Shown one piece after another: positions 1 through 61,800 of a stretch of 64,000 bases of DNA (the first letter of the stretch is position 1; every line of letters begins with the position of its first letter). A program made the position numbers and the translations under genes. The notes below the pieces were generated by a model. That model was not told the DNA's origin, ran no database searches, and saw only the letters and a program-made list of their open reading frames with translations. Location: the IMG/VR virus record IMGVR_UViG_3300015214_000028, positions 1 through 64,000 of that record. The stretch is one strand, 5' to 3'. Source of the stretch: a virus. Taxonomy: Duplodnaviria > Heunggongvirae > Uroviricota > Caudoviricetes.

Positions 1-1521
1 AGAGCCTGTAGGACCTTGGGGGCCTGTTGGACCTTGAATACCTTGAGAGCCTGTTGGTCCTATTGGACCTTGAATACCTTCAGAGCCTGTAGGACCTTGG
101 GGACCTGTTGGACCTTGAATACCCTGAATACCTTGAGAGCCTGTGGGGCCTTGGGGGCCTGTAGGGCCTTGAATATTCCCTACGTTTTCCCAAGCACTAC
201 CACTCCAAACATAAAGGTCTCCATTAATAAGGTAGGCATCTCCCTGTGTTCCACTAGGAGGCAGTTCCAGTTCGGATTCCAGAGAATCTAAAATCTGTAC
301 CCCTGTGCCCTGTGGACCTGTAGGACCTAGAGCTCCGGTAGGGCCTGTAGGGCCTTGAATACCTTGGATACCTTGAGTACCTGTTGGACCTATTGGACCT
401 TGAATACCTTCAGAGCCTGTTGGACCTGTAGGACCTATTGGACCTTGAATACCTTCAGAGCCTGTTGGACCTATTGGACCTTGAATACCTTCAGAGCCTG
501 TAGGACCTTGGGGACCTGTTGGACCTTGAATACCCTGAATACCTTGAGAACCTGTTGGGCCTTGAATACCCTGAGAACCTGTGGGACCTTGAGGACCTGT
601 TGGGCCTTGAATATTGCCTACATTTTCCCAAGCACTGCCATTCCAAACATATAGATCTCCCTCAATAAGGTAGGCTTCTCCCACTGTACCGCTGATAGGT
701 AGCTCTAGCTCCGACTCTAAAGAGCCTAGAATGCTTACACCGGTTCCTTGAGGACCTGTTGGGCCTAGAGCACCTGTAGGTCCGGGAATGCCTTGAACAC
801 CTGTAGGGCCAATGGGGCCTGTTGGTCCCTGAATACCTTGGAGGCCTGTAGGGCCTGTAGGACCTTGAATACCCTGAAGGCCTGTTAGGCCTTGAATACC
901 CTGAGAGCCTGTAGGACCTGTAGGACCTTGAATACCCTGGATGCCTTGGGAGCCCGTTGGGCCTGTAGGGCCTAAAGCACCTGTAGGGCCTAAAGCACCT
1001 GTGGGTCCTGTAGGGCCTTGGATACCTTGAGTACCCTGAAGACCTTGAGGACCTGTTGGACCTACGGAACCTGTTGGACCTACGGAACCTGTCGGGCCTA
1101 TAACGCCCTGTACTCCCTGAACACCTTGAGCACCAGTAGGGCCTGTTGGGCCTGCAACACCTTGCACACCCTGAATGCCTTGAGAACCTGTAGGACCCTG
1201 AATACCTTGAGCACCTGTAGGGCCTATTGATCCAGTAGGCCCTACAAATCTACCAATGTTGTTCCAAACAGCTCCTTCCCAGAGCCAAAGGTCCCCTCCA
1301 ATAATGTAGCCATCACCTAAATTGTTTCCAGAAAGGGGAAGCAAACTTTGATCGGCTAAAGTACCTATAACTAAAATACCGGGACCTTGTGCCCCAGTAG
1401 GCCCAGTAGGCCCGGTCGGCCCAATATGGCCCGGAGGGCCAATCGGGCCCGGCGTGCCAGCTGTAATAAGTACTATTTCTTTAGTAACTGGGTCAACTAC
1501 AATATCTACTTCTCTAGCCAC
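1..1521 (-). CDS. collagen-like (Gly-X-Y repeat) fibre/structural protein, partial; C-terminus lies beyond the window start
   Basis: Minus-strand GTG at 1521-1519 preceded by GGAGG. Translation [47 protein letters not shown]..., then three long G-X-Y blocks (GPTG, GIQG, GVQG) separated by short non-collagenous spacers. No stop before position 1. The plus-strand ORFs 16..291, 355..654 and 1018..1230 are its antisense. Confidence 0.8.
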
Positions 1522-1888
1522 GAGTAACCTCCGGACGTAGTTTAATCTTACCCTCTAGTAATCTTACAACATACTCAGGATTATTCGTGTGAAACAATTC
1601 TAAATCGTACACGCCACCTTCTTGTACTAGTACACTAGACGTAGAAGGTAAAACAGTAACCTTAATTTCTCCGGGTAGTCCGCCTAGCTCTATCCCCCCA
1701 CCCGGATCTGAATTCAAATTTAAAAAAGCTACAGGAGAATCGAACTCTTCCCTAGCCTGCATTCGGGCGGAGAACTCTGTTAAGTCTACTGGAGTAGTTA
1801 CACCAGTATTAGTATCTTTTGTTTCCCAAATAAAAGACTTAACATAAGTTGCCCCCTTATTTATCTCTAAATCTAGTCTTCCTGCCAT
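1514..1888 (-). CDS. hypothetical structural protein (124 aa); position suggests a head decoration or connector role
   Basis: Track ORF. Sits between the capsid gene and the fibre gene and overlaps the fibre start by 8 nt (GTGGCTAG). Confidence 0.5.
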
Positions 1889-1966
1889 TTTATGTCCTTT
1901 TCAAATAAACTGCGAAGGGGGAACGAAAAAGGGGAAGCCCTAAGGCTCCCCCTTTCATGGGCTTAA

Positions 1967-3778
1967 TTAAGCAACCCAACGAGCGCAAGCAACTGCTTCG
2001 CCGTCTGTATCTGAAATCTGCTCGAAGCCCATACGTAGTGTAGCAACTAGTAAGGTTGATTGCTTCTCAACTAGATAATCTGATTCGACTGTTAGACCTT
2101 TGTAATTACCAATCATAAAGTTATTTGGATTGATAGCAATAGCAGGGTAGTTAGTTGCGATCTTAGAACCTAGCTCTCCTGATACGATAACTGGTGATCC
2201 GCCAGCCATACCGATCTGTCCACTAATAATAGTGGCTCGATCTCCAACTTTGTCCATTGTCTGGAACTCTGAATCTTCTAGAAGCTCGTAATATCCGGCT
2301 GTTGAAACGATGAAACTAACTTCTGCGGGATTTAGACCCCAAACACCTAAACGCTTACGAAGACCACGAAGTGCAGCAACAGTAAGAGTTGCATTAGTAC
2401 CAAGACTAAGAGTAGTATTGGAACCTGCAGCCTCGTACCCAGTAATACCAGTAATAGGGTCATTAGTATTACCAGCACCTAAAAGAAGCGCTTTATCGAC
2501 TGACTTAGCAGTTCTACGAATCATGGCGTCACGAATCACAGGCATTAGTGCAAGAATAGCATCCTGATCTTCTTCGTTTCCGATGAATTCTTTGGTTGCT
2601 AGCTTGTGTGCTGTGATTGTTAGGTCTTTTAGAACATGGGTCGCTGCTGAGCCCGAGCTAGCATCAGTACCATACTGAGCAGCAGTAACCCAAGTGCCGT
2701 ATCCAGCTTCTGGGTTAATTGGGAATCGAGTAACGACTCCTGGCATATTGATTTTACGGAAGAGAGGTTCAACGACTAAGCGTCTACGAATCTCTGCAAG
2801 CATGTTTGTGCTAACAATGTTTTCCCAATTTGCATTAGGAACGTGAGCACCATATTTCTCAACAATTTGCTGATAAGCTTTGGTCTCAGTTAGCCCTTTC
2901 CGGGTAGCCCGGGCCATAAGAACTGCAAGTTCTTTTTCGGCGTAGCTAACTTCATCACCATTACTGCGATCTTGAAATAGTTCTTTCTGCTTACGGAGGG
3001 CTTCAATTTCAGCAGCCTTCTCAGCAAGTTCACCACGTAGGTCTTCAATTGCTTTTGATACTGTAGTATTTTCTTCGGCAAGCCGCTTCTCAACAGTCTC
3101 TAGAAGTTGTTCTGCACCAGATTTTTCAACCTGAATACGTGCAGCTTCTGCAGCCTGCGTGGCTAGAGCTTCGTCAGCCGCTTTCTGCGCAGCAGCTGTT
3201 GCTGCGGCCGCTGCTTTTTCTGCAGCTGCGGTTACTAGAGCTTCTAGTTGTTCTTTATCCATTAATAACTCCTCTTTAAGAAATGACTTCTTAAATTCAA
3301 TTAACTCTTTTTTAGAGTTAAAACTTTTTGCAAGGTCAAATAAACTGTCTTGATTAGCTGGGACTGAGACAACAGATACCTCCAGTAACTCTAGAGCTTT
3401 AATTACGAAAATGTCAGTTGCAGAATCGTAATCAGCGTCTTTGACGTAAAAACCAATAGAGAAAGCTTTTAAAACTCCCTCTTTAATAAGCTGGTACACT
3501 TTACCAGCGGCGCTAGAAATCTTAGCAGTTAACTTTAGTCCATTTTCATCCGGCGAAATATCAACTGCCGTACCGATTGGTTCTGAGTGATTATGGAAAG
3601 CCAGAATAATTGGATTTTTTCTAAAGTTTTCTAAAGCTGCCTCATTCCAAGCGTATGATGGAACAACGTCTCCATACCTGTCTTTAGAGATAGTATTAGC
3701 GTATCCAGTAATTAACAGCTCATCATCTTCTAGCGCTTTGGCCTCGAAGTGGCCGAACGCTTTAATCATTTGTGTCAT
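1967..3778 (-). CDS. fused prohead protease (HK97/S78-like) + Ala/Glu-rich scaffold linker + HK97-fold major capsid protein
   Basis: N-terminal ~160 aa carry protease motifs (FHNHSEPIGT, LKAFSIGF, EVSVVSVPANQDS). Residues ~170-300 are an AEKAAAAATAAAQKAADEALA coiled-coil. C-terminal ~300 aa show major-capsid-like blocks (GYGTWVTAAQYG ... SGELGSKIATNYPAIAINPNNFMIGNYKG). Confidence 0.75.
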   Translation of the reverse strand: MTQMIKAFGHFEAKALEDDELLITGYANTISKDRYGDVVPSYAWNEAALENFRKNPIILAFHNHSEPIGTAVDISPDENGLKLTAKISSAAGKVYQLIKEGVLKAFSIGFYVKDADYDSATDIFVIKALELLEVSVVSVPANQDSLFDLAKSFNSKKELIEFKKSFLKEELLMDKEQLEALVTAAAEKAAAAATAAAQKAADEALATQAAEAARIQVEKSGAEQLLETVEKRLAEENTTVSKAIEDLRGELAEKAAEIEALRKQKELFQDRSNGDEVSYAEKELAVLMARATRKGLTETKAYQQIVEKYGAHVPNANWENIVSTNMLAEIRRRLVVEPLFRKINMPGVVTRFPINPEAGYGTWVTAAQYGTDASSGSAATHVLKDLTITAHKLATKEFIGNEEDQDAILALMPVIRDAMIRRTAKSVDKALLLGAGNTNDPITGITGYEAAGSNTTLSLGTNATLTVAALRGLRKRLGVWGLNPAEVSFIVSTAGYYELLEDSEFQTMDKVGDRATIISGQIGMAGGSPVIVSGELGSKIATNYPAIAINPNNFMIGNYKGLTVESDYLVEKQSTLLVATLRMGFEQISDTDGEAVACARWVA

Positions 3779-4931
3779 CTTTTGATCCTGATGGTTTAGC
3801 TGCAGAGCCAGTAATATTGGCTGGAATTCTTAGTTTATCCGATTCTGGGGAAGGGTCTTTCGGATAACGCAACTCTAGACGCGCTTCATTGGGGGTGATT
3901 ACGCCAGTATTGACTAAGGTTCCTAAATAAGCAGCCTGAATATTAAGCTCTGGCCGTAGAGCTTCTGCACCCGAGGTATCCACTGAAATGTCATAGCCGA
4001 AGTACCTTTCAAAGGCACTAACAACTAATCTAGCCAGGGGTAGAATAGTTTCAACCCACATCAGCTTTTGATTTGGAGTAATATTGGCATTATTGCCTCC
4101 AAACAGTAGAATCGGCGGTACGCCAAGTGCAAGTAAAACAGATTCATCTATTGAACGAACTGAGCCTTCAAAATCTAACTCTTTGAATTTGCCTTCTCCA
4201 AGAGCTTTAACTTCTAGACCTCCGTCTAGAATAAGTGGTCGTTTTCCGCCACGTTTCGGGTTATACTCCCGAACCCAGTTCTCAATTAAACGATCCTTGA
4301 TCTTCTGTCCTAGAACGCTAGGAGACTGGATCACTAAGCCCGGGACCGCGTTATTCTTAAAGAAATTACGCTGGAACTCTAACATTTCTCCTCTAATATT
4401 AATTAGTTCAAGAAACGTCTTAGCTCTACTAGTCCCTCTAAAGATACTGTCCGAACCGTTGTCGCTTACGGGAATGATTTCCTCAGGATTAAATCGAATT
4501 GTGGAATTGTATTCGTAATAAGCAACAAGTGTTTTCGGATCAGTAACTACTTTAACATTCACCGCTGGTAGATGGTACATAAAAGCACCATCAAAGTGAA
4601 TATAGGCGTTACCTTCTAGTATTAAATCTAGATAGATAAGCCTTTTAAATCTTTCAATATCTTGATAAGGATTAGGACTAAATTGAATTAAAGTTTCTAA
4701 TTTAGCTTTCCTAATTGACACTACGCCCACACCATTCAGTTTACTAGTAACGTCGAATCCCAGGCTAGAAGCACCGTTAACAATTAAGTCAACACCGCGT
4801 CGAACAACTGGAATCTCGTTATAGGCTGAAACATGGCTAGCATAGCGGCGCGCGGTCGAGTACACTTCCCCGCTATCGCGGGAAATGACAGATTGCGCGG
4901 GGTTTAATTTAGTTCGCAACCATTGCAGCAT
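3762..4931 (-). CDS. portal protein (HK97-family size, 389 aa)
   Basis: Size and position between terminase/HNH and the protease-capsid gene; portal-like composition. Confidence 0.6.
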   Translation of the reverse strand: MLQWLRTKLNPAQSVISRDSGEVYSTARRYASHVSAYNEIPVVRRGVDLIVNGASSLGFDVTSKLNGVGVVSIRKAKLETLIQFSPNPYQDIERFKRLIYLDLILEGNAYIHFDGAFMYHLPAVNVKVVTDPKTLVAYYEYNSTIRFNPEEIIPVSDNGSDSIFRGTSRAKTFLELINIRGEMLEFQRNFFKNNAVPGLVIQSPSVLGQKIKDRLIENWVREYNPKRGGKRPLILDGGLEVKALGEGKFKELDFEGSVRSIDESVLLALGVPPILLFGGNNANITPNQKLMWVETILPLARLVVSAFERYFGYDISVDTSGAEALRPELNIQAAYLGTLVNTGVITPNEARLELRYPKDPSPESDKLRIPANITGSAAKPSGSKDDTND

Positions 4932-7129: not shown

Positions 7130-7222
7130 GAGTGCTCTGAGCCCCGGGTTACCTTCCAATATTTTCTTAAAGTTGTACGCGGGGCCACCAATTACTCAGC
7201 GTCGCTGAGCCCCGGGTTACTC
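7130..7222. repeat. two direct ~65-bp repeats, each containing CTGAGCCCCGGGTTAC and AATTTTCTTAAAGTTGTACGCGGGG
   Basis: Read directly at 7130-7160 and 7200-7260. The core is the same 17-mer that recurs at 12187-14181. Confidence 0.8.
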
Positions 7223-7286
7223 TGTAAATTTTCTTAAAGTTGTACGCGGGGGAGGGCGGTGCGGCGGTGCCGATAGAGCGAGTCTA

Positions 7287-7322
7287 TCAACCGCCCATGC
7301 CCGATAGGGTGAGCCTATCGGG
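7287..7322. repeat. perfect 15-bp-stem inverted repeat (CCCATGCCCGATAGG gtgagc CCTATCGGGCATGGG) just downstream of the minus-strand two-gene operon
   Basis: Read directly. Preceded by a second palindrome GATAGAGCGAGTCTATC. Confidence 0.8.
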
Positions 7323-7337
7323 CATGGGTCTTGCCTG

Positions 7338-7634
7338 CTACACCTGGCGCGCAGGCGCGAAGTTCGCGAGGTTCAGCACGTCCAATCGATCATGTTCGGG
7401 CCGGGCAAGTGCATCGACCAAACGAGCGAGGAATTCCGTCGCGCTGATGGTAACGTGCCCGCCAGACACAGGAAAATCTACTTGCACGCTAACGCGCTCG
7501 ATCGCGCCTGCGCGCTCTACTGCGCGATTCAATTGCCTGACAAACGAGCGCGCAGCGATGAAGGTCATACCCTGCCCGAACGGGCGCGGCTGGCCTACGG
7601 GCTTTCCGGCCGCGAAGATGGTAATCTGTGTCAT
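7338..7634 (-). CDS. hypothetical protein (98 aa) in a ~60% GC patch
   Basis: Track ORF; follows the upstream ORF with a 5-nt gap. Confidence 0.45.
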   Translation of the reverse strand: MTQITIFAAGKPVGQPRPFGQGMTFIAARSFVRQLNRAVERAGAIERVSVQVDFPVSGGHVTISATEFLARLVDALARPEHDRLDVLNLANFAPARQV

Positions 7635-7639
7635 GCTGG

Positions 7640-7918
7640 TTACTCCATCGAATAATCGGCACAGTAGCGCAGCGCGCTAATGACCCGTTCCACAATCTTG
7701 GCCTCCCTGACTGCCTTTACCGCACCCGCATACTCGCCTGCGCTAGCATCCGTGGACATGCTCAGCAGGGTTTCTTCATGAAAGCGCACGTCGGACTCAG
7801 CCTTTGCTTGGGTAGAGTACAGAAGGTCTTCTACGCGCTGGCGCGCGGCGTTCAGTTCCTCATAAGCGACTTCACCCAGACCGAACATATGAGCTACGAA
7901 TGTGACAGTTGCCTTTTG
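7640..7918 (-). CDS. hypothetical protein (~93 aa; start ATG at 7918 with RBS GGAGGTAGG)
   Basis: The reverse complement of 7921-7935 gives GGTGGAGGTAGGAAA before the ATG. The track's longer 170-aa version runs back into AT-rich non-coding DNA. Confidence 0.45.
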   Translation of the reverse strand, partial: QKATVTFVAHMFGLGEVAYEELNAARQRVEDLLYSTQAKAESDVRFHEETLLSMSTDASAGEYAGAVKAVREAKIVERVISALRYCADYSME

Positions 7919-8357
7919 CATTTTCCTACCTCCACCCAATGCAGTGAAACCGGTCGGTTTCCTCGTTTGCTGCATCAGAGACTTAACTATAGCAAAGCAT
8001 TTTAACCCTGCAAAGCGGAAAATTGTAACAAATTGTAACTGTTGTTTTTTCACCACACGCGCCCGATGGGCACTCTTTCCCACTAATAACATTATACACG
8101 CTAGAAAAACCGTGTCAAGCAAAATATTTTTGCTCGTTCCGAAAATGAACATGTCTGATTTTGCCTAGTCTGTTTTACTGCCCTGGTCAAGCATTATTTT
8201 CTGCCTAGCATGTAACGATGTTATCGTCAAGACATATCGCGCCGAAAACACAAAACCTGGTAGCTGTCAAGTATTCCGCACTAAAATGCAAGGGTATTGC
8301 ATAGCATCTAAAAAGTATGCTAGACTATGGGTTATTGCATTAAATAGGCTATTCACC

Positions 8358-9217: not shown

Positions 9218-9283
9218 CACTACCGTTAAAACGTGCTATAATGGCTCTTCCTGATTGACGATAAACGAACTGAGGGAAACAAA

Positions 9284-10849
9284 ATGATCGAAGCTAAAAT
9301 TGCACTGCGCATTCGCGGCGCTTTCCGGTTGCGCAAACCCGAAAGCATTGATTCTGCTATTGCCGACGTTGCCGAGGAAATTGGCGCGGATGTTAACGCG
9401 GTTCGGGAAGTTTACAATACCGAACGTGCACGGTTGGACGCGGCACGGATCGAGCGGATTCGGAAGGCGGAAAGCAAACCCGTTTCGGGCGGCGCGTTGC
9501 GCCCGGATTATTCTGCGGAAGATTACCCTGGTCCAATCATCGTCACCGCCGCGCAAAATAACACGGAAGTGGCAGAAGCTTTCTGGGATAACCTTGTCGG
9601 GTATGCGTCCAGCATTGGGGCTAAAATCATTGTCGCACCGATTCTGTATAATAAATCGGCATGGAATCAGCCCGATGACATGACTGGACAAGATATTTAC
9701 TTTGACCCCAAGGTCAAACCCTATATGCGCGATGATCGGTTTACCGTTCACGGTGTAGCGGTATTGGCTAACGCTCATGTTTTGCCGACGTCCAAGAATC
9801 CGTTGTCGGGTTTTGAATCGGCCACGGGTGCTGGACAGTCTATCGTCATCCCGGCCAGTAAAATCTCTCTTAAAACGATGCCACGCCTTAAGGGTGAACC
9901 GCTGAAAATTGTTCAATCTACGGGCACGGTTACGGTATGCAACTATGTCCAGCGCAAGGCCGGAACGGTATCCGAGTTGGAGCACAATTACGGGTTTACC
10001 GTGATTGAATCCGGCGGAAAAGTTCGATCGGTAGAATGTATGAATCCTGATGCCGGCGGGTTTTTTGATTTTGACGGGGAGCATGTAAACGAACAAGGCA
10101 TTGAGTACCCTGATAACCCGGCTGCGCTGGTTTTTGGAGATATTCACGCCGAAAAGCTGCCGCTGGAACGGCTTAATGCAATCTCGGCACTAGCGCGAAA
10201 GGTCAATCCGTGCAATGTCATTTTCCACGATATTCTAGACTTTTCGAGTCGGAACCATCACAATCGGGAGTCTAGTCTCTTCCGCTTTGTGGCGGATTCT
10301 ACGGGCCAGTCAGTGGAAAGCGATATTGAAAAGGTCGCTAACGTGCTAGACTGTTTCCCAAGCTATGCTCCTATTGTGGTTGACTCCAACCATGACAGAG
10401 CGCTTGAACGTTGGCTGGATGAGGCAGATTATCGCGAGGACTCACAAAACGCGATTTTCTTTTTGGAATTGCAGCTTGCACGATACCGTGCGGCAAACTG
10501 TGGACAAGAGCCTATTAACCTGCTAAAATACGCTTTGACCAAGCGTTTCGGCAGGGATTTTAATGCTACTTTCCTGAAGCCTGATGAAAGCTGCAAGGTA
10601 GAAGGTATTGAATGCGGCAATCATGGCGACCGTGGCCCTAACGGCGCTAGGGGAAGTTTGCAAGCATTCCGGGCAATTGGCGAATCTATGGTGATCGGAC
10701 ACTCCCATAGTCCGGGCATTGCCGGCAAAGTGTATCAGGTCGGGGTTTCGGGCAGCCTTGAAATGGGGTACAATGTTGGACCGTCGTCTTGGGCGCATGC
10801 TCACTGTATCATTTTCGCCAATGGACAACGGCAAATGATTTTCGAGTAA
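9284..10849 (+). CDS. large protein with a C-terminal calcineurin-like (Mre11-type) metallophosphoesterase domain; resembles T5 pre-early A1
   Basis: Motifs VFGDIHAE, HDILD, DSNHD, ECGNHGDRG, VIGHSHSP; 521 aa. Confidence 0.55.
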   Translation: MIEAKIALRIRGAFRLRKPESIDSAIADVAEEIGADVNAVREVYNTERARLDAARIERIRKAESKPVSGGALRPDYSAEDYPGPIIVTAAQNNTEVAEAFWDNLVGYASSIGAKIIVAPILYNKSAWNQPDDMTGQDIYFDPKVKPYMRDDRFTVHGVAVLANAHVLPTSKNPLSGFESATGAGQSIVIPASKISLKTMPRLKGEPLKIVQSTGTVTVCNYVQRKAGTVSELEHNYGFTVIESGGKVRSVECMNPDAGGFFDFDGEHVNEQGIEYPDNPAALVFGDIHAEKLPLERLNAISALARKVNPCNVIFHDILDFSSRNHHNRESSLFRFVADSTGQSVESDIEKVANVLDCFPSYAPIVVDSNHDRALERWLDEADYREDSQNAIFFLELQLARYRAANCGQEPINLLKYALTKRFGRDFNATFLKPDESCKVEGIECGNHGDRGPNGARGSLQAFRAIGESMVIGHSHSPGIAGKVYQVGVSGSLEMGYNVGPSSWAHAHCIIFANGQRQMIFE

Positions 10850-19956: not shown

Positions 19957-20351
19957 TCCGCGACGAACTGCAGGCTCTTGCAGACGAGCTCGAATCGAAT
20001 CTGTATCACCGTGCCGCCGCTGTCCTGCGGCAAATTGCAGATGCGAAACCGGTTGCATGGCGCTGGATGTATAAGGGAAAGCCTGAGCCTTACGCTCTTG
20101 GAGGAAGCCTCTGTTTTGACGGTACCGGCCCCGATGCTGATATCGAGGCACGAGGAGCAGCAGCCGAACATCCTCGCACAGTACAGAGGCTCTACGCCCT
20201 ACCCCCTGCACTCCGCATGCCGGAGCCGATGACGAGAAGCGAAATCAGCGACTACGCACGAGTGATGGTGAAGGACAATAGGTCGGTAGATTGGCTGGTT
20301 ATGCAGATCGAGGCCGAAACCCTTCACCGAGTGAAGGAGATGAACGAATGA
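19953..20351 (+). CDS. hypothetical protein (132 aa; GTG start overlaps the upstream stop)
   Basis: Track ORF in the high-GC island. Confidence 0.4.
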   Translation: MIRDELQALADELESNLYHRAAAVLRQIADAKPVAWRWMYKGKPEPYALGGSLCFDGTGPDADIEARGAAAEHPRTVQRLYALPPALRMPEPMTRSEISDYARVMVKDNRSVDWLVMQIEAETLHRVKEMNE

Positions 20352-21202
20352 ACCGACCCCTTGTGATCTACCACGGCAACTGCGCGGACGGCTTTAGCGC
20401 AGCTTGGTGTTTCTGGCGCAAGTACGGCGCCGGCGCTGACTACGTTGCAGGCGTGTACCAGCAAGCTCCGCCTGACGTGGCCGGGCGCGACGTGTACCTG
20501 GTGGACTTCAGCTACAAGCGCTCCGTGGTGGAGCAGATGCTGGCGCAGGCGCGCAGCGTGTGCTTAATCGACCACCACAAGACCGCCATTGAAGACTTGC
20601 AGCCGCTGTTCATGCAGGATTCGTGGGCGGGGGAGCCGAAGCAACTGGCGCACTTCACCGACTTGAACCGGAGCGGTGCCACGCTGGCGTGGGACTACCT
20701 GTTCCCGGGCGAAGACCGGCCGCTCCTGCTGGGCCATGTGGAAGACCGCGACCTGTGGCGCTTCAAGCTGCAGGGCACGCGCGAGATTCAGGCGTTCATG
20801 TTCTCGCACGAGTACAGCTTCGAGCTGTGGGACAAGCTTATGAGCGCCGATCAGGTGGAACTGCTGAAGATGACCGCAGCCGGTGCCGCCATCGAGCGTA
20901 AACACCACAAGGACGTGGCCGAGCTGGTGGCTGTGTGCAAGCGACGTATGGTGATCGGCGCCCATGATGTGCCCGTCGCGAGTCTTCCGTACACGATGGT
21001 TAGCGATGCCGCGCACCTGATGGCGCAGGGCGAGCCATTCGCGGCGTGCTACTGGGACACCGCCGAAGGTCGCGTGTTCGGCCTGCGCTCCTCCGACGAA
21101 GGCGTGGACGTATCTGAAGTGGCAAAGCAGTACGGCGGTGGCGGCCACGCCAAAGCGGCCGGATTCATGGTGCCGCGTGGTCACGTTCTAGCGGTGGCGT
21201 AA
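20348..21202 (+). CDS. DHH/DHHA1-family phosphoesterase (NrnA-like nanoRNase / pAp- or cyclic-dinucleotide-phosphodiesterase-like)
   Basis: Motifs LVIYHGNCADGFSAA, LVDFS, CLIDHHKT (DHH), and C-terminal QYGGGGHAKAAGF (DHHA1 GGGH). ATG at 20348 shares its A with the upstream stop (ATGA). Confidence 0.65.
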   Translation: MNRPLVIYHGNCADGFSAAWCFWRKYGAGADYVAGVYQQAPPDVAGRDVYLVDFSYKRSVVEQMLAQARSVCLIDHHKTAIEDLQPLFMQDSWAGEPKQLAHFTDLNRSGATLAWDYLFPGEDRPLLLGHVEDRDLWRFKLQGTREIQAFMFSHEYSFELWDKLMSADQVELLKMTAAGAAIERKHHKDVAELVAVCKRRMVIGAHDVPVASLPYTMVSDAAHLMAQGEPFAACYWDTAEGRVFGLRSSDEGVDVSEVAKQYGGGGHAKAAGFMVPRGHVLAVA

Positions 21203-21230
21203 TGCTGCGCCGAGTCAAGGAGGTGAACAA

Positions 21231-21458
21231 ATGAAAGGAACTGAAATGAATGTGAGCGTCGAACAGTTGAGCGACGGAGATCGTGTCCGCTTGCACCCGA
21301 ACTCGGACAACCCGATTCACAAGCAGCCGGTGTATGCAACGTACTCGCAGGGATACTTCTTCTGCGATGGAAGTGGCCCTGCGGATGGTCCCGACTACTT
21401 CTTCCGCGACGTGCTGACATTCAATGACCGCATTGAGTTGATTGTCACCAACAGGTAA
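21231..21458 (+). CDS. hypothetical protein (75 aa)
   Basis: Track ORF; high GC. Confidence 0.4.
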   Translation: MKGTEMNVSVEQLSDGDRVRLHPNSDNPIHKQPVYATYSQGYFFCDGSGPADGPDYFFRDVLTFNDRIELIVTNR

Positions 21459-21494
21459 GTCAATTCCTAAGCGCTACGAGAAGGAGAGGAACAA

Positions 21495-21731
21495 GTGAGC
21501 AAGATAAAAAACGGCGGTCCGGCTTACCCAGCGGTTGATATTGTTCCCGGAGTAAATTACAATTCTTCAACCGAAATCTATTACAAGGGCATGACCCTGC
21601 GCGATTGGTTTGCAGGACAGGCACTAGTCGGGCTATCTATTCGACGTGAAGGCGAGTGCGATGCAGACGACGCCGAAAACGCTTACAGACTCGCAGACGC
21701 CATGCTCAAGGCAAGGGAGGTGAACAAGTGA
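21495..21731 (+). CDS. hypothetical protein (78 aa; GTG start with a GGAG RBS)
   Basis: Track ORF; last gene of the high-GC island. Confidence 0.4.
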   Translation: MSKIKNGGPAYPAVDIVPGVNYNSSTEIYYKGMTLRDWFAGQALVGLSIRREGECDADDAENAYRLADAMLKAREVNK

Positions 21732-21794
21732 GCATCGAACTAATCGAAGCAATCGGGGTATGGATAGTACTGCCGGTAACGTGTAGGAGTTAAA

Positions 21795-22121
21795 ATGATG
21801 CATAAAAATGCCTGGCTTCGTGTTATTGACGAAGCTCTAGTAACTTCTGGGCTAGAGTTTGCTAGCCCTAATGATTCATATGAAGAGGCTAAACAAAAAT
21901 TAAATGATCTGATTTGTTGGAATATTTCAGTGGCTGTTGATCCGGTACTTGCGGAGCAACTATCAGAAGAAGAAATACTAGAAGCTATTAGCCCTTTCTA
22001 CAGCACTAGATTATTAGCTATTATGGGACTGGAAGGGGGCCTGCCTGAGTTTAGAGAGATCGAAAGGGCGGTACTACACAAACTGTATAATACCTTTTCC
22101 AAAAAGAAATTTGGGGCTTGA
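21795..22121 (+). CDS. hypothetical protein (108 aa)
   Basis: Track ORF; composition returns to AT-rich. Confidence 0.45.
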   Translation: MMHKNAWLRVIDEALVTSGLEFASPNDSYEEAKQKLNDLICWNISVAVDPVLAEQLSEEEILEAISPFYSTRLLAIMGLEGGLPEFREIERAVLHKLYNTFSKKKFGA

Positions 22122-24671: not shown

Positions 24672-25183
24672 AAACATTCCTTGTAGCAGACACGCACTTT
24701 GGTCACCAAGGTGTTTGTAGGTTTCTTAGAGAGGACGGCTCCAAGCTTCGTCCATGGGATAACTATGCAGATATGGATCGGGAGCTTGTTGCTAGATGGA
24801 ACGCTAAAGTAGGGCCTAAAGATAAGGTATATCACCTGGGCGATGTTCTTATAAACCGTAGGGCTTTTGGTGTTTTGAATGAGCTTAATGGTGATAAGGT
24901 ACTAATACGTGGTAACCATGACATCTTTAAAGACGCCGAGTATACTCCATTCTTTAGGTCTATACGTGGGTCTCATGTGTTAAATAACATGTTGTTAACT
25001 CATATACCTGTTCACCCAGACAGTATGGGCAGGTTTACAGTTAATCTTCATGGGCACTTGCACTATCGTAGTGTTATGCTAGGAGACACGCCCGACCCTA
25101 GGTACCTATGTCTATCAGTGGAGCATACTGATTATGCTCCAATAGATTTTAACGAAGTACTTTCTAGAGTAGCTCAGCGGTAG
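24668..25183 (+). CDS. calcineurin-like metallophosphoesterase
   Basis: Motifs ADTHFGHQG, GDVLINR, IRGNHD, GHLHYR. The 3' end overlaps tRNA-Asn. Confidence 0.6.
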   Translation: MKTFLVADTHFGHQGVCRFLREDGSKLRPWDNYADMDRELVARWNAKVGPKDKVYHLGDVLINRRAFGVLNELNGDKVLIRGNHDIFKDAEYTPFFRSIRGSHVLNNMLLTHIPVHPDSMGRFTVNLHGHLHYRSVMLGDTPDPRYLCLSVEHTDYAPIDFNEVLSRVAQR

Positions 25184-25237
25184 AGCAGTTGGCTGTTACC
25201 CAATTGGTCCTAGGTTCGATACCTAGCTCTAGAGCCA
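25163..25237 (+). tRNA. tRNA-Asn(GTT)
   Basis: Acceptor TCTAGAG/CTCTAGA; D arm AGCTCAGCGGTAGAGCA; anticodon loop CTGTTAC; T loop TTCGATA; encoded CCA. Confidence 0.75.
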
Positions 25238-25312
25238 GGGGGATTAGTGATAATGGGAGCACAGGGGTTTTGCATACCTTTAGTGGGAGTTCAATTCTCC
25301 CATCCTCCACCA
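25238..25312 (+). tRNA. tRNA-Ala(TGC)
   Basis: G3:U70 alanine identity pair; anticodon loop TTTGCAT; T arm GGGAG-TTCAATT-CTCCC; encoded CCA. Confidence 0.65.
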
Positions 25313-25320
25313 AGTTTTAA

Positions 25321-25395
25321 GCACGATTCGTCTATCGGTTAGGACTCAAGGTTTTCATCCTTGCAAGAGGGGTTCGACTCCCCTATCGTGTGCCA
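25321..25395 (+). tRNA. tRNA-Glu(TTC)
   Basis: Anticodon stem CAAGG/CCTTG with loop TTTTCAT; T arm AGGGG-TTCGACT-CCCCT; encoded CCA. Confidence 0.7.
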
Positions 25396-25459
25396 ATTTT
25401 AGTTTTAGGATAGATACAGCAAATTTTACTTATATGGAAGTAACCAAAACTATCCTGTC

Positions 25460-25488
25460 TTGATTTTGTTTGATTAGTGCTGTATAAT
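25460..25488 (+). promoter_or_regulatory. sigma70 promoter TTGATT-N17-TATAAT ahead of the tRNA-Gly/Ile pair
   Basis: Read directly. Confidence 0.6.
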
Positions 25489-25500
25489 GTTTATATCGGA

Positions 25501-25569
25501 TGGGGAATCGCCAAGATGGTTAAGGCATTGGGTTTTGATCCCGACAGTCGAATCCTTCTTCCCTTGCCA
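25501..25569 (+). ncRNA. tRNA-like leader or degenerate tRNA (acceptor, D arm and a TTG anticodon arm recognisable, no T arm)
   Basis: GCC-aagatggttaa-GGC D arm and TTGGG-ttttgat-CCCGA anticodon-like arm ending in TTGCCA, but the 3' part has no foldable T stem. Confidence 0.3.
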
Positions 25570-25578
25570 AAATATTTT

Positions 25579-25654
25579 GCGGATATAGCTCAATTGGTAG
25601 AGCTTCTGCCTTCCAAGCAGACTGTTGTCGGTTCGAGTCCGACTATCCGCTCCA
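25579..25654 (+). tRNA. tRNA-Gly(TCC)
   Basis: GCGGATA/TATCCGC acceptor; loop CTTCCAA; T arm GTCGG-TTCGAGT-CCGAC; encoded CCA. Confidence 0.8.
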
Positions 25655-25661
25655 ACTTTAC

Positions 25662-25736
25662 TCCCGATTAGCTCAGAGGTAGAGCAGTGTTTTGATAAAG
25701 CACTGGTCGATGGTTCGAGTCCATCATCGGGTACCA
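25662..25736 (+). tRNA. tRNA-Ile(GAT)
   Basis: D arm GCTCAGAGGTAGAGC; loop TTGATAA; T arm GATGG-TTCGAGT-CCATC; encoded CCA. The 1:72 pair is T:T. Confidence 0.7.
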
Positions 25737-26075
25737 AATTTAGAGTATACTACCCCAACGGATGGAAAGGAACTACACCTCCCCTTCTTAGTAGGGAAAA
25801 CTCTAAATCTTCTGGGGTCTTGGCCAGACTTTAGAATAATCGACTGTGCGATGAGAGGCTTTAATCTCTCGGGGTACGGCAGTACAGGAACCGTAACCTG
25901 CTATAATAATGATTCCTTTCACTTTTAGGAGCTTATTACTAAGTCTCCTTTTTCAAGATAACTAGACGGACTGTGCTGCCCATAGCGGCACGTGTTAACA
26001 AGTTCGGTGGCGTCTGGCAACCTGCAAAAACTGTATATGCCAGTATACAGGAATGTATCTAGTTGTCTTGAAAAA

Positions 26076-26167
26076 GGAGAGATCCCATAATCGGTATTGG
26101 AGCGGATTGCTAATCCGTCGGCCTGCTAAAAACAGACTTGTGGGTTCGAGTCCCACTCTCTCCACCA
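26076..26167 (+). tRNA. tRNA-Ser(GCT), type II with a long variable arm
   Basis: GGAGAGA/TCTCTCC acceptor; loop TTGCTAA; T arm GTGGG-TTCGAGT-CCCAC; encoded CCA. Confidence 0.7.
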
Positions 26168-26172
26168 TAATT

Positions 26173-57787: not shown

Positions 57788-58363
57788 CTATTTAACACCC
57801 AAAAATCTTTCAGGGTATAAAAGATACTCAGCTTCTAAGTTTCTTCTACGTACTAAACCCGGGAGAATTTTTCCTCCCCCAAATTTCCATCTTAAGCATT
57901 CTTTAGCAGAAGCTTCCCAATTTTTTTCTAGCAGTCTTTTTCTAAATGTAGAGCCTGCAAAAGCAGTAGCCCCTAAATTAAAAACAAAATCAGTTACCGC
58001 TGCTAGTCTAATAGGATCTTCCTTTAGTACTGGGCAAAGTCGTATAGTGTCACTCAAATAATCTGGAAGTATAGCTACTAAACGTCTATCTGCTTCTTCT
58101 CTAGTAATTGGAGGCACAGACATTGAGGAGACTCGAATACCCCACCCTTGAGTGGGGTATCCTGCTGGACATATATAAGGATATATAAGACCGTCTTTAC
58201 CTACTTTATGCAGCCCCTCAAATTCTTGTACTAAAGGAATTAATGCATAAGGCACTCCATTCGGGTAGCTAAGCTCTTGAGATTGAGGTTGAGGTTGAGG
58301 TTGAGGTTGAGGTTGAGATTGGGAGGACTTTTCTAAAATAGACACTAACCACTTCCACATCAC
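57788..58363 (-). CDS. endolysin, GH24 (T4-lysozyme-like) with an N-terminal (QP)n linker
   Basis: EFEGLHKVGKDGLIYPYICPAGYPTQGWG catalytic motif; SQSQPQPQPQPQPQSQ encoded by (GGTTGA)n at 58270-58316. Confidence 0.65.
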   Translation of the reverse strand: MMWKWLVSILEKSSQSQPQPQPQPQPQSQELSYPNGVPYALIPLVQEFEGLHKVGKDGLIYPYICPAGYPTQGWGIRVSSMSVPPITREEADRRLVAILPDYLSDTIRLCPVLKEDPIRLAAVTDFVFNLGATAFAGSTFRKRLLEKNWEASAKECLRWKFGGGKILPGLVRRRNLEAEYLLYPERFLGVK

Positions 58364-58830
58364 AGCCCTTTTTTACGAAGTGCTCTATCTAAGAACCAAA
58401 AGCCAACGATACTACCGATAACTGCTTTGTCAAATTCAGTAACTAATAAATTAGCTACAGTTATTAGATCAGCTTCTTGATTTACCGCTACGGCTACAGT
58501 TATTAACTTGTAGGCAGAGTATAAAATAATGCACCACCAATAAGTTAGCAGGGGGCGTACAGACGCGTTGATAGCATCTATAAATCTTATGCCTGAAGTT
58601 TTAACTTCTAAAGCATAGGGTAGCGCATTCGCCCAGGCCCCTTCTACCATAGCTTCCGTTGTTGCAGTGATTTCTCTTTCTTTATGCTGCCATTTTAATT
58701 TTTCAAGCTCCATGCTCTTATCAAGCAATGCTATTTCATGTTTTAAGTCTCTACCCTGTCTAAAAAATTCTAAAACAGAGGGGAACAGCCTAAAAAGGCC
58801 GCCCCCTATTAAGGAAAGTAATTCAAACAT
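58360..58830 (-). CDS. hypothetical membrane-associated protein (156 aa)
   Basis: Track ORF with one TM segment. Confidence 0.4.
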   Translation of the reverse strand: MFELLSLIGGGLFRLFPSVLEFFRQGRDLKHEIALLDKSMELEKLKWQHKEREITATTEAMVEGAWANALPYALEVKTSGIRFIDAINASVRPLLTYWWCIILYSAYKLITVAVAVNQEADLITVANLLVTEFDKAVIGSIVGFWFLDRALRKKGL

Positions 58831-61800
58831 TTAATTTCTTCTTTAGTTCCTCTACTTGAGCAGATAGCTCTTGTACAGCTTTTACTAATATTGGAATAAG
58901 TTGTAGTTCCCTGATGGCCAAGTGCGCTTCTTCATTAGTAGATTCTACTAATTCAGGAACAATAGACTTGACTTGCTGCGCTGAAAAACCCCACCATTTT
59001 CTATGGGTATCATCATTCTTCCAACTGTAAGTAATAGGTTGAAATTTTAATAAAGCACCTAACCCCGGGTTAGTATCTGCATCTTCAATATTTTTTAAAC
59101 GAATATCTGAAGCGCCACCTGCTATTAGATGTCCAAGATGAAATACTACTGAAAAACCATTAAAAGTAGAGTTAGAGAATGAGCCAGAGAAAAATAAGCC
59201 TGTTGTGCCTATATTAGGGTTCGTACCTGTGGCCCTAATTGCAAAGTTACTGCTATAATCATTAATTGCAACGGTACCAGCATCATTGCTAGCATAGGCA
59301 TCATAAATATCTACGCCATCCGTAAGGGCTGTATCCGTAGATAAGCGCCTAAACAAAGCAGTGTACCCACTATTGGGGGAGGAAACCGCCTTAATCGCAG
59401 CGTTATAAGTAGCTAATTGTACATCAGTATTGATGTTGCCCTTAGAAGAATACCCAGTCCCTTTAAACCTAGAAAACCAACCACCTTTAGCATACATATT
59501 GCTACCGGTTAGATCTGCTCCGTTAAAGGCTTGACCTCTTACTGCTGCGTAGGTATTTCCGGAGGCAAGTGAGCCAATGTACTTCCATGAAGATATCGAG
59601 GTTGAATTAGAAGCGCTAAACACTCCCACAACAGCATTTCCACCACTACTAATATAGTTTAAGGAAGCCGAAGAAATTCCTTTGTGAATCCAAACAGGAG
59701 CAGCATCATCAACTGTGTTTGTAGCTGAAAGAAGGACTCTATTGGAGTCCCCAACTGCCTTTGTTAAGTGGAAATTAGAGGTATGGTTTCCTACTACTGT
59801 TCCCTCGGTAGAGATGGATAGTGTAGAATTGGCAGAGGATCCTAAAGATAGGGTGCCTCCTAAGGATACTCTACTGGTAGTAGCTACAATATATGCATTA
59901 GAATTCCCAATTGCAAATTGTCCCGAACTGTTAACTCTAAAGCCCGCTCCTGAACTAATATAGTCATAATACGTGCTGGAACTAACTACTGGAGGAGACG
60001 ACCCCGCTGTAATACTGGTAGAAACATTTAAAGAGCCAGTATTAGCAGTAATGGCACTTAAAGTACCTACTTTAAGACTAGATAGGTAGGGAGTGTACCA
60101 GGTAGTCTCATTAGTTACTGGGTTATAGATACCGTCTGTCTGATACAGGCTATTGCTAGAACTAGGTAAAGGATCGTTACCATACCAGGTAATGTTCATC
60201 GACCATGCACTATTTGATTGAGAACTGTTAGGAAAGTCAGTATTTCCGATAGTTGTAACGGTACCAGAGACTGGATTTACGTTACCAAACCTAGCATAGG
60301 CTGTTCTATATGACGCCCCTTGTGGTCCCGCAGTACCTACACCTGTAGCCCCTTGCTTAGCTTTGGCTACAGTAAGAATATGGGTGTACCATACTGAGTT
60401 ATACTGAGCAGCTAATTCAAAAGTCACAGCATCCGTATTCCAAGATGCTCCAGATAAGGTAATAGCGCCAGAAGAATTAATAGCGCAGGTTAATCCGTTT
60501 TTGTTTTGTGAAGTAGCATAAGTGGTAGGCCCAGTTTTAACTCTATAATTAATTCCAGAAGTTAATTGTTCTCCTCCAGAGTATAGTCTTAATGCGTTTC
60601 CTGAAGGTAGAGTGTAACCCCCACCACTAGTATTAGTGGGAACTATTAAGTTTTCTGATATTAAATCTGCAAATACTGCGGAATCACCTTTTTTCGATTT
60701 AGCAATTACATATGCAGTCGAATAAGGAACACTATCATAAGTAGCTGTAAAGATAAACTCTACTTTATCTGTATTCCATGAACCGGAAAATGTAACATTT
60801 CCAGAAGAGTCAATATTAGCCACTACCCCCACAACACTAGAAGTATATGAATAAGTTATGCCGCTAGTAATTAAAGTATTACCCAGATATAATCTAATTT
60901 GATTTGTTGGGTAACTAAATCCACTACCGTCCGCTAAAGCGGGAACTACATCTGCCTCTGAAAGGAGATCGATAGTAATAGGGTTTCCACCATTGGCACC
61001 ATTATAGGCTTCTGGTCGTACTGCCGCAGTAACCCAGTTAATGGGCGTAGTAGCAGCATTAGCACTATCTACTAGACGTAAAGACGCAGAGTATAAAGTA
61101 GTTCCTGGTGCGGGCGCCGGGATAGTTTTAGTCCATCCGCTAGGATCACTAAAGTTTCCGGTAGACCAGGTGTACGTACTAGTACCAGTTGGGCCCGCGG
61201 GTATTGTTAAGTCTAATTTATAGACTTTAATTTCAGCGGACTGAATAAAGTCTCCTTCCTCACCGTTTTCAGAGCGATAAACAGATACAGAAGGATTTGC
61301 CCAATTAACTAAGCTCGTAGTGTTTTGCTCTTCAGTAGTAATACTTTGAGCAGCTACCCATAGGTAAACACTAGATCCTCCAGGATTTGGACCAAAAGTA
61401 TTAGACCAACCGTTTATTCCAGTATAAGGACTTAATGAGTTTGTACTCCAAGTGTAGGTCTGAACACCCGTTGGATTTCCCGGCTTAACACTGCTCCACT
61501 GAAAAAGGAATACTCTAGAAGTTTTTAGTGCTTTTTCTAGCGAAACTGCAGAAACAGGGCCTACTTCTGGTAACAAATTACCATTCCTGTCTAAGATTCT
61601 AGCCCAGAAATACCAAGTTTCGCCGGCCTCTAGCTCTGCTTTAAAGCCTTCTCCCGTAGTCGTTCCAAGGGTGGTAGCTGTAGAGAAGTCATTTACTAGA
61701 CTGTATAGAATCTCAATATGTTTTATGGCTACTAATAGACTATTTGGGTTTGTCCAAGTTAATACTACTCCTCCGGAGGCACTAGTAGCCGCTAGCCCGG

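What the first reader, a model, noticed from the sequence alone, without database searches (positions are those of the whole stretch)
1967..3778. Prohead protease, scaffold-like linker and HK97-fold capsid protein fused in one 603-aa ORF
T5-like and HK97-like phages normally encode the maturation protease separately. Here S78-type protease motifs, an Ala/Glu coiled-coil and the capsid domain are contiguous with no stop or frameshift. This implies cis autoprocessing, or a protease copy delivered with every capsid subunit.
Basis: partly seen in the sequence, partly recalled or inferred. Interest (0 to 1): 0.55.

Follow-up and report, generated by a model that had tools for sequence, protein, structure and literature searches.

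The report
Fused protease–capsid gene, internal start
An uncultivated T5-like phage encodes its head-maturation protease, scaffold domain and capsid protein in one real 603-residue gene; such fusions are already known, but a conserved ribosome-binding site and ATG inside it suggest the capsid protein is also made on its own.

Summary
Window 1967..3778 (-) is one 603-aa ORF. It has an S78 prohead protease (aa 12-148; H62/S107 align with the HK97 gp4 residues I recall as its catalytic pair, H65/S114), a helical T5 pb8-like scaffolding (delta) domain (aa ~173-308) and an HK97-fold capsid domain (to aa 603).

It is not a frameshift artefact. 120 metagenome proteins (47-91% identity) and 82 IMG/VR loci (39-58%) keep one frame.

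The architecture is not new. Lactobacillus phage Lv-1 is annotated "protease-scaffold-major head protein". [quoted passage not shown] What is new is a T5-like version: all T5-like records among 972 cultured-phage hits have two genes.

Codon 173 is an invariant in-frame ATG in a variable linker. A Shine-Dalgarno motif (AAAGAGGAG, -8.6 kcal/mol) lies 6 nt upstream and is stronger than at 35 of 36 putative gene starts in the window. All 64 distinct related sequences keep such a motif. It occurs in several codon registers and with a biased Lys codon, and sits in an mRNA-structure minimum.

Lv-1 and EV3, an independent fusion lineage, show the same feature. The likely mechanism is a nested gene pair giving full-length protease-delta-MCP and a 431-aa delta-MCP. 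Moderate interest.

The parts
1967..3778 (-). Complete 603-aa ORF: protease, linker, delta (scaffolding) domain and HK97-fold capsid domain. The stop codon is at 1967-1969.
3281..3778 (-). S78 prohead serine protease module, aa 1-166 (Pfam match aa 12-148 = 3335..3745). Putative catalytic His62 is codon 3593-3595 and Ser107 is codon 3458-3460.
   Evidence: 58% identity to aa 36-180 of a T5-like head maturation protease. H62 and S107 align with HK97 gp4 H65 and S114 and are invariant in 120 homologs.
3263..3280 (-). Short variable linker, aa 167-172. It is 6 residues here against a median of 25 in relatives. It contains the Shine-Dalgarno motif AAAGAGGAG at 3269..3277.
   Evidence: This is a low-confidence (pLDDT below 50) segment of the model.
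3260..3262 (-). In-frame ATG of codon 173, the predicted internal translation start of a 431-aa delta-MCP product.
   Evidence: Met in 119 of 120 homologs. ATG in 79 of 83 aligned sequences, and the other 4 have an SD-preceded ATG or GTG 9-24 codons away. SD duplex -8.6 kcal/mol, the only strong one among 14 in-frame start codons of the ORF. It sits in a local mRNA structure minimum.
2855..3262 (-). Helical delta/scaffolding domain, aa 173-308, homologous to the N-terminal domain of T5 pb8. The maturation cleavage is predicted near its end (aa ~300-309; K308 is invariant).
   Evidence: Mature T5 pb8 (5tjt, 299 aa) aligns from query aa 311 to chain residue 8.
1970..2854 (-). HK97-fold capsid domain, aa ~309-603: the predicted mature major capsid protein of ~295-300 aa.
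   Evidence: Foldseek best matches are the DT57C and T5 capsids, E 2e-18.
1927..1956 (-). 13-bp G+C-rich hairpin followed by a U-run, directly after the stop codon. It looks like an intrinsic terminator.
   Evidence: -23.2 kcal/mol, z -3.4. The simple terminator scan did not list it.
3762..4931 (-). Portal gene (context). Its 3' end overlaps the first 17 nt of the fused ORF. The gene order TerS-TerL-nicking endonuclease-portal-(protease+MCP) matches T5.

Best explanation
The ORF is a genuine gene of an uncultivated T5-like phage. In it the adjacent prohead-protease and major-capsid genes of T5-type phages have become one reading frame, because there is no stop codon after the protease. It most likely works as a nested gene pair.

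Initiation at codon 1 gives a 603-aa protease-delta-MCP. Initiation at the conserved Shine-Dalgarno/ATG of codon 173 gives a 431-aa delta-MCP, the counterpart of the 458-aa T5 pb8 precursor.

Both products share the delta and capsid domains, so they would co-assemble on the portal into the prohead. The full-length copies would carry the protease into the shell interior as a covalent passenger of a capsid subunit. This would replace non-covalent targeting of a separate protease.

The active protease (His62/Ser107) would then remove the delta domains and itself in trans, near residues 300-309. That leaves a mature capsid protein of about 295-300 aa that expands on DNA packaging.

Shown here: the architecture, its conservation, the conservation of the putative catalytic residues and the conserved internal initiation signals. 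Inferred: that both products are made, their ratio, co-assembly and the cleavage position.
For: 1. Domains and homology.

2. Putative catalytic pair: H62 and S107 align with HK97 gp4 H65 and S114 and are invariant in 120 homologs. That H65/S114 is the HK97 catalytic pair is my recollection, not a tool result.

3. The fusion is conserved at 39-91% identity in 120 proteins and 82 loci.

4. Met173 is conserved in 119 of 120 homologs, while linker residues 167-172 vary and linker length ranges from 5 to 40 residues.

5. All 64 distinct sequences have an anti-SD duplex of -4 kcal/mol or better upstream of that ATG. Only 12% of 965 other in-frame ATGs do (Mann-Whitney p 4e-36). The four apparent exceptions carry an SD plus ATG or GTG nearby.

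6. The motif is kept at nucleotide level. It falls in three codon registers and under different amino acids. The Lys codon feeding it is AAG 45 times and AAA 8 times, against 1230 and 1829 elsewhere.

7. The 50-nt mRNA folding energy has its minimum of structure exactly at this ATG (-2.6 against -7 to -12 kcal/mol; z above 0 in 64 of 64).

8. In the window the internal SD (-8.6) is stronger than that of codon 1 (-4.1), than those of the 12 other in-frame start codons, and than those of 35 of 36 putative gene starts.

9. In T5-like phages the same position holds protease stop, SD, then the MCP ATG.

10. An independent fusion lineage shows the same feature. Lv-1 and EV3 have a strong SD plus ATG at codon 184, right after the protease domain (-11.6 and -12.6). 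Their relative bIL309 has two separate genes, with the MCP start at that place.

11. Nested protease/scaffold genes are an established strategy in lambda, HSV-1 and HFTV1.
Against: There is no expression or proteomic data, so the internal start is inferred from sequence signals only.

The homologs are related to each other, so the counts are not independent events, although they span 39-91% protein identity.

The A-rich composition around the site partly explains the low mRNA structure.

In most relatives codon 1 also has a strong SD (-6 to -12). The ratio of the two products therefore cannot be read from the sequence, and the weak first start is particular to this window.

The start sites used for comparison are longest-ORF starts and may be imprecise.

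A 1:1 protease load is not excluded by anything I tested.
Confidence: 0.65

Rival explanations
1. Single product. Only the 603-aa polyprotein is made, every capsid subunit brings its own protease, and the protease and delta domain are removed by cis or neighbour-in-trans autoprocessing. The internal SD/ATG is then a tolerated relic of the ancestral MCP start, or reflects an amino-acid motif.
For: There is one uninterrupted ORF. Codon 1 has a good SD in most relatives. The protease can only be made as part of the full-length chain. Nothing I tested excludes a 1:1 protease load.
Against: A relic should decay at 39-58% protein identity. Instead, the ATG and an SD at functional spacing are present in all 83 sequences. 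They occur in different codon registers, with AAG-biased Lys codons and in an mRNA structure minimum. The same feature is found in the independent Lv-1/EV3 lineage. A strong SD with an ATG 6-7 nt downstream in an unstructured region would be expected to initiate in an SD-using host.
Confidence: 0.27
2. The protease module is a degenerate, inactive remnant that now serves only as extra scaffold. Maturation would be done by another protease or would not occur.
For: None specific. Proteolytic activity was not tested.
Against: The module is 58% identical to T5-like proteases and scores above the curated cutoffs of PF04586 and TIGR01543. The residues aligned with HK97 gp4 H65 and S114 are invariant in 120 homologs. 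No other head protease was seen between portal and MCP.
Confidence: 0.04
3. Assembly or sequencing artefact: two genes joined by a lost stop codon or a frameshift error.
For: T5-like cultured phages have two genes, with only 17 nt between them.
Against: The identical protein occurs in two independent ENA assemblies. 120 proteins and 82 loci from many samples keep the single frame.
Confidence: 0.01

Closest known systems
Bacteriophage T5 head module: protease pb11 plus major head protein pb8 (Demerecviridae)
   Same: Closest sequence relatives. The protease part is 58% identical to a T5-like protease and the delta-plus-capsid part is 31% identical to a T5-like pb8. The best PDB hits are the T5 and DT57C capsids. 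The gene order is the same, T5-specific Pfam families are found in TerS and the nicking endonuclease, an A1-like gene is present and there is a tRNA cluster. The scaffold is an N-terminal domain of the MCP that the protease removes.
   Different: T5-like phages have two genes separated by a stop codon and a 17-nt spacer, and a decoration gene lies between portal and protease. Here there is one frame and no decoration gene at that place. The ~30-residue pb11 C-terminal tail is replaced by a 6-residue linker in this window, against ~25 residues in most relatives.
[quoted passage not shown]
   Same: Same three-part architecture at the same genomic place, directly after the portal gene. Lv-1 and EV3 also carry a strong SD plus ATG just after the protease domain.
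   Different: These are independent lineages. Lv-1 shares only a short protease stretch with this protein (E 7e-6). The score against NF045541 is 57 bits against a cutoff of 525. The scaffold segment here is a T5-type helical delta domain, whereas in Lv-1 and EV3 it is an acidic low-complexity segment. No cultured phage in the collection has this T5-like fused form.
Nested protease/scaffold genes: lambda C/Nu3, HSV-1 UL26/UL26.5, HFTV1 gp17/gp17.5 (Mu I/Z from my own knowledge)
   Same: A long product with an N-terminal protease and a shorter, in-frame, internally initiated product share a C-terminal assembly module. The protease is thus targeted into the procapsid by the shared part (for lambda, HSV-1 and HFTV1).
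   Different: In those systems the shared part is a free scaffolding protein. Here it would be the scaffold domain plus the capsid protein itself, so the protease carrier would be a shell subunit. Two products are experimentally shown for those systems and only predicted here.
HK97 gp4/gp5
   Same: S78 protease with the aligned His/Ser pair. The MCP has a delta domain. [quoted passage not shown]
   Different: The genes are separate. gp4 has a long C-terminal extension absent here, which from my own knowledge (Duda et al. 2013, not read here) targets it into the prohead.

Membership tests
Peptidase S78 (HK97 gp4-type caudoviral prohead serine protease) | Match to PF04586 / TIGR01543 above the curated cutoff | tested here: met
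   71.5 bits against 21; 74.8 bits against 59
Peptidase S78 (HK97 gp4-type caudoviral prohead serine protease) | His/Ser pair at the positions of HK97 gp4 H65 and S114 (the catalytic role of these residues is recalled, not checked here) | tested here: met
   H62 and S107 align with them and are invariant in 120 homologs
Peptidase S78 (HK97 gp4-type caudoviral prohead serine protease) | Proteolytic processing of the capsid precursor | not testable with these tools
   Needs expression or virion mass spectrometry
HK97-fold major capsid protein with N-terminal delta scaffolding domain (T5 pb8 type) | Match to PF05065 / TIGR01554 above cutoff and sequence homology to solved T5-type capsid proteins | tested here: met
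   PDB 8ho3, 8zvi and 5tjt with E 5e-44 to 8e-42
HK97-fold major capsid protein with N-terminal delta scaffolding domain (T5 pb8 type) | HK97 fold of the C-terminal ~300 residues | tested here: met
   AF2 model (mean pLDDT 65; capsid part mostly 60-88) with Foldseek best hits to DT57C and T5 capsids, E 2e-18. Model confidence is moderate.
HK97-fold major capsid protein with N-terminal delta scaffolding domain (T5 pb8 type) | Helical N-terminal domain homologous to the pb8 scaffolding domain and removed at maturation | tested here: inconclusive
   Homology and helicity are met. Removal and the exact cleavage site (predicted aa 300-309) cannot be tested here.
NCBIfam NF045541 prohead protease/major capsid protein fusion protein | Score at or above the curated cutoff (525 bits) | tested here: not met
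   57.1 bits, and only aa 45-297 aligned. Same architecture, but not a member of this family.
Protease-scaffold-MCP fusion genes (architecture class) | Protease and MCP domains in one uninterrupted, conserved frame directly after the portal gene | tested here: met
   Comparators are Lv-1 and EV3.
Nested protease/assembly-protein gene pairs (lambda C/Nu3 type) | In-frame internal translation initiation region downstream of the protease domain | tested here: met
   Invariant ATG, conserved SD and an mRNA structure minimum. These are sequence signals only.
Nested protease/assembly-protein gene pairs (lambda C/Nu3 type) | Two protein products actually made, with the shorter one in excess | not testable with these tools
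   Needs Ribo-seq, N-terminomics or western blot

The most novel reading that the evidence does not exclude
Protease-delta-MCP 'fusions' may not be simple polyproteins. They may be nested gene pairs in which the major capsid protein is itself the internally initiated product of the protease ORF. Protease dosage per capsid would then be set by the ratio of two in-frame starts, and the protease would be delivered as a covalent part of a minority of shell subunits. This would be a third solution, beside a separately encoded protease (T5, HK97) and nested protease/free scaffold (lambda, herpesviruses). Finding the same signals in the unrelated Lv-1/EV3 lineage suggests convergence or a general rule for such fusions. 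I found no description of this in the papers I could search.
Probability: 0.4. Interest if true: 0.55.

Novelty: new variant of a known kind. Interest (0 to 1): 0.42.

Why it matters
If the internal start is used, the many genes annotated as "prohead protease/major capsid protein" fusions encode two products. Their annotation, capsid mass predictions and stoichiometry models would need correcting.

It would extend the nested protease/scaffold logic of lambda and herpesviruses to phages whose scaffold is part of the capsid protein. It would also explain how a fused gene can avoid loading several hundred protease copies into one T5-sized head (T5 uses 775 pb8 subunits).

It offers a simple, testable system for how protease dosage is set during HK97-type assembly: one ORF expressed in E. 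coli with S107A and start-site mutants.

If the internal start is not used, the finding is simply a T5-like member of an already known class of fused genes.

Tried and rejected
- Megablast of the ORF against cultured phages found nothing. tblastn of the junction region (aa 120-340) also found nothing. No cultured phage in that collection therefore has a close fused relative.
- Several tblastn hits looked like fusions because of their labels: Moraxella Mcat17 "coat protein", Providencia PSTCR5 "major head protein x2", Tetraselmis virus SI1 and Komagataeibacter phiKM1. All have separate protease and capsid genes.
- Membership in NCBIfam NF045541 failed: 57 bits against 525.
- An internal promoter for a separate delta-MCP transcript is not supported. 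Sigma-70-like sites are at chance level, 9 against 8.0 +/- 3.1.
- I considered a programmed -1 frameshift at the A-rich linker (A AAA AAG-like runs in some relatives). I rejected it by inspection because the run is absent from this window and not in a consistent register.
- I first inferred that the protease C-terminal tail was lost because covalent tethering made it unnecessary. This holds only for this window's short linker. Most relatives keep ~25 residues there.
- I first inferred that a weak first start means the full-length product is the minor one. This holds only for this window. Most relatives have a strong SD at codon 1.
- The T5 papers that would give the exact pb8 and pb11 cleavage sites were not held. 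The cleavage position is therefore only mapped by alignment to the mature T5 chain.
- Literature searches for a described nested protease-MCP start found none. Subscription journals are largely missing from the library, so prior description cannot be excluded.

Full report
**1. Observation**

Window 1967..3778 on the minus strand is a single ATG-initiated ORF of 603 codons.
- Pfam places Peptidase_S78 at aa 12-148 (E 1.2e-19) and Phage_capsid at aa 324-585 (E 1.4e-7). Both are above the curated cutoffs.
- NCBIfam agrees, with TIGR01543 and TIGR01554.
- Against solved structures, residues 178-588 match the 458-aa major head proteins of DT57C and T5 (E 5e-44 and 3e-42). Residues 311-586 match the mature 299-aa T5 pb8 chain from its residue 8.
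- An AlphaFold2 model built on 38 homologs (mean pLDDT 65) shows a beta-rich domain (5-137), a helical region (156-310) and an HK97-type domain (318-603). Foldseek's best hits are the DT57C and T5 capsids.

**2. Not an artefact**

- The identical protein is called on contigs from two ENA assemblies, one of 86.9 kb.
- A search of 5.8 billion clustered proteins returned 120 top hits of 598-659 aa at 47-100% identity. All carry the protease domain and all but three a capsid domain on record. Several are named by JGI [quoted passage not shown].
- A pattern scan of IMG/VR gave over 500 confirmed relatives. In the 82 loci kept (39-58% identity; contigs up to 114 kb) one uninterrupted frame spans both domains.

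**3. What the element is**

The surroundings are those of a T5-like phage.
- The gene order is TerS (T5_Terminase_small), TerL, a T5 nicking-endonuclease-like gene, portal, then this ORF. This matches a Tequintavirus record, except that the decoration gene is missing and protease and MCP are joined.
- The window also has an A1-like "DNA transfer protein" and 15 tRNA genes.
- The protease part is 58% identical to aa 36-180 of the 210-aa T5-like protease.
- The rest is 31% identical to the T5-like pb8 precursor, including its scaffolding domain.
- H62 and S107 align with HK97 gp4 H65 and S114 and are invariant in all homologs examined. I recall H65/S114 as the HK97 catalytic pair, so the protease is presumably active.

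**4. The fusion as such is known**

- GenBank EU871039 annotates the 615-aa Lv-1 gene as "protease-scaffold-major head protein". I confirmed S78 plus Phage_capsid domains in it.
- Thaumarchaeal proviruses with an S78 protease fused to the MCP have been described.
- PHROG 617 and 4523 and NCBIfam NF045541 model such proteins.

The window's protein is not a member of NF045541 (57 against 525 bits). It shares only a short protease stretch with Lv-1. Among cultured phage records its relatives all have two genes. It is therefore a new, T5-like lineage of a known architecture.

**5. The internal start**

The DNA reads ctt AAA GAG GAG tta tta ATG gat at codons 167-174. This is a canonical Shine-Dalgarno motif 6 nt before an in-frame ATG.

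- *Conservation of the Met.* Met173 is present in 119 of 120 homologs, although the preceding linker varies in sequence and in length (5-40 residues).
- *Conservation of the ATG.* In 83 aligned DNA sequences the ATG is present in 79. The other four have an SD-preceded ATG or GTG 9-24 codons away.
- *SD strength.* All 64 distinct sequences have an anti-SD duplex of -4 kcal/mol or better, with a median of -6.2. Only 12% of 965 other in-frame ATGs do (p 4e-36).
- *Nucleotide-level constraint.* The motif occurs in three codon registers and under differing amino acids. The Lys codon that supplies it is AAG 45 times and AAA 8 times, although AAA predominates elsewhere (1829 against 1230).
- *mRNA structure.* Fifty-nt windows are least structured exactly at this ATG: mean -2.6 kcal/mol against -7 to -12 on either side, with z above 0 in 64 of 64.
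- *Within the window.* This SD (-8.6) is the only strong one among 14 in-frame start codons of the ORF. It exceeds codon 1 (-4.1) and 35 of 36 putative gene starts. That fits the most abundant virion protein.

**6. Comparators**

- In a T5-like phage the same place reads protease stop (TAA), GGAG, then the MCP ATG. The internal start is therefore the retained MCP start.
- In the unrelated Lactobacillus phages Lv-1 and EV3 (49% identical to each other), the fused genes have a very strong SD plus ATG at codon 184, right after the protease domain (-11.6 and -12.6 kcal/mol). Most other internal ATGs lack one; the only other strong one is Lv-1 M297/M299 just before the capsid domain, with a moderate one at EV3 M335.
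- Their relative bIL309 has separate, overlapping protease and capsid genes, with the capsid start at that position.

**7. Mechanism**

The best-supported reading is a nested pair: full-length protease-delta-MCP and a 431-aa delta-MCP. This is analogous to lambda C/Nu3, HSV-1 UL26/UL26.5 and HFTV1 gp17/gp17.5, where ribosome profiling showed the internal start. Here, however, the shared part is the capsid subunit itself.
- The full-length copies would co-assemble and carry the protease inside the shell.
- Cleavage near residues 300-309 would release the delta domains. This position comes from alignment to mature T5 pb8 and from the invariant T299, K308, G310 and H312.
- A hairpin with a U-run follows the stop codon.

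*Caveats.* No protein data exist. The related sequences are not independent. Most relatives also have a strong SD at codon 1, so the product ratio is unknown.

The main rival is a single polyprotein with a protease on every subunit. It remains possible, and I give it about a quarter of the probability.

**8. Verdict**

The architecture class is known, the T5-like lineage is new, and the conserved nested start is a testable addition that I did not find described.

Noticed in passing
window 1..1521 (-), continuing beyond the window start (689 aa in L084:6258-8327): A collagen-like protein with long Gly-X-Y repeat runs, interrupted by repeated ~60-aa modules ([28 protein letters not shown]). It starts at a GTG overlapping the stop of the 124-aa ORF, two genes downstream of the capsid gene. 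The + strand ORFs at 16-1230 (TLNTLRACW...) are its mirror-frame shadows. It could be a head fibre or decoration, or a tail fibre. It also explains the raised G+C of the first 2 kb.
   Followed up: partly
window 1514..1888 (-): A 124-aa ORF lies directly after the capsid gene and its hairpin. It matches PHROG 1084 (unknown function, E 3e-16) and, weakly, 'L-shaped tail fiber protein assembly'. It has no Pfam hit. It occupies the place where T5 has its head-tail adaptor.
   Followed up: partly
L091:2243-4090 (Lactobacillus phage Lv-1 gp04) and L092:568-2556 (phage EV3_004): These independent protease-scaffold-MCP fusions in cultured phages also have in-frame ATGs with very strong SDs after the protease domain (codon 184 in both). 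A second one lies just before the capsid domain (Lv-1 M299, EV3 M335). The related lactococcal phage bIL309 has the two genes separate and overlapping out of frame.
   Followed up: partly
window 3263..3280 (-), aa 167-172: The linker between protease and internal start is only 6 residues in this phage, against a median of 25 (range 5-40) in relatives. This looks like a lineage-specific deletion of the region that corresponds to the T5 pb11 C-terminal tail.
   Followed up: partly
window 25163..33256 (+): A cluster of 15 tRNA genes (ARAGORN). Rfam reports one more tRNA-like match at 30517-30614 that ARAGORN did not list. A tRNA cluster is typical of T5-like phages.
   Followed up: no
window 9284..10849 (+): A 521-aa protein matches PHROG 1745 'DNA transfer protein' (E 4e-147) and, more weakly, a metallo-phosphoesterase family. 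From my own knowledge this resembles the A1 pre-early gene of T5. A 303-aa ORF on the opposite strand (9236-10147) overlaps it and is probably spurious.
   Followed up: no
window 20001..22000: A local G+C peak (0.563 against ~0.40 for the phage) with overlapping long ORFs on both strands (20291-21202 + and 20564-21184 -). The + strand ORF has a DHHA1 phosphoesterase domain (E 7e-7). This may be a recently acquired gene.
   Followed up: partly
window 7200..8200: Just upstream of the terminase genes there is a stretch with many overlapping ORFs of 68-170 aa on both strands and no family match for the longest (7640-8152). This may be non-coding or regulatory DNA at the boundary between oppositely oriented gene blocks.
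   Followed up: no
window 58823..63367 (-): A 1514-aa tail protein is related at its N-terminus to central tail fibre J / host-specificity proteins (E 5e-129). Downstream of it on the minus strand lie a PHROG 6637 protein (58360-58830) and an endolysin-like gene (57788-58363).
   Followed up: no
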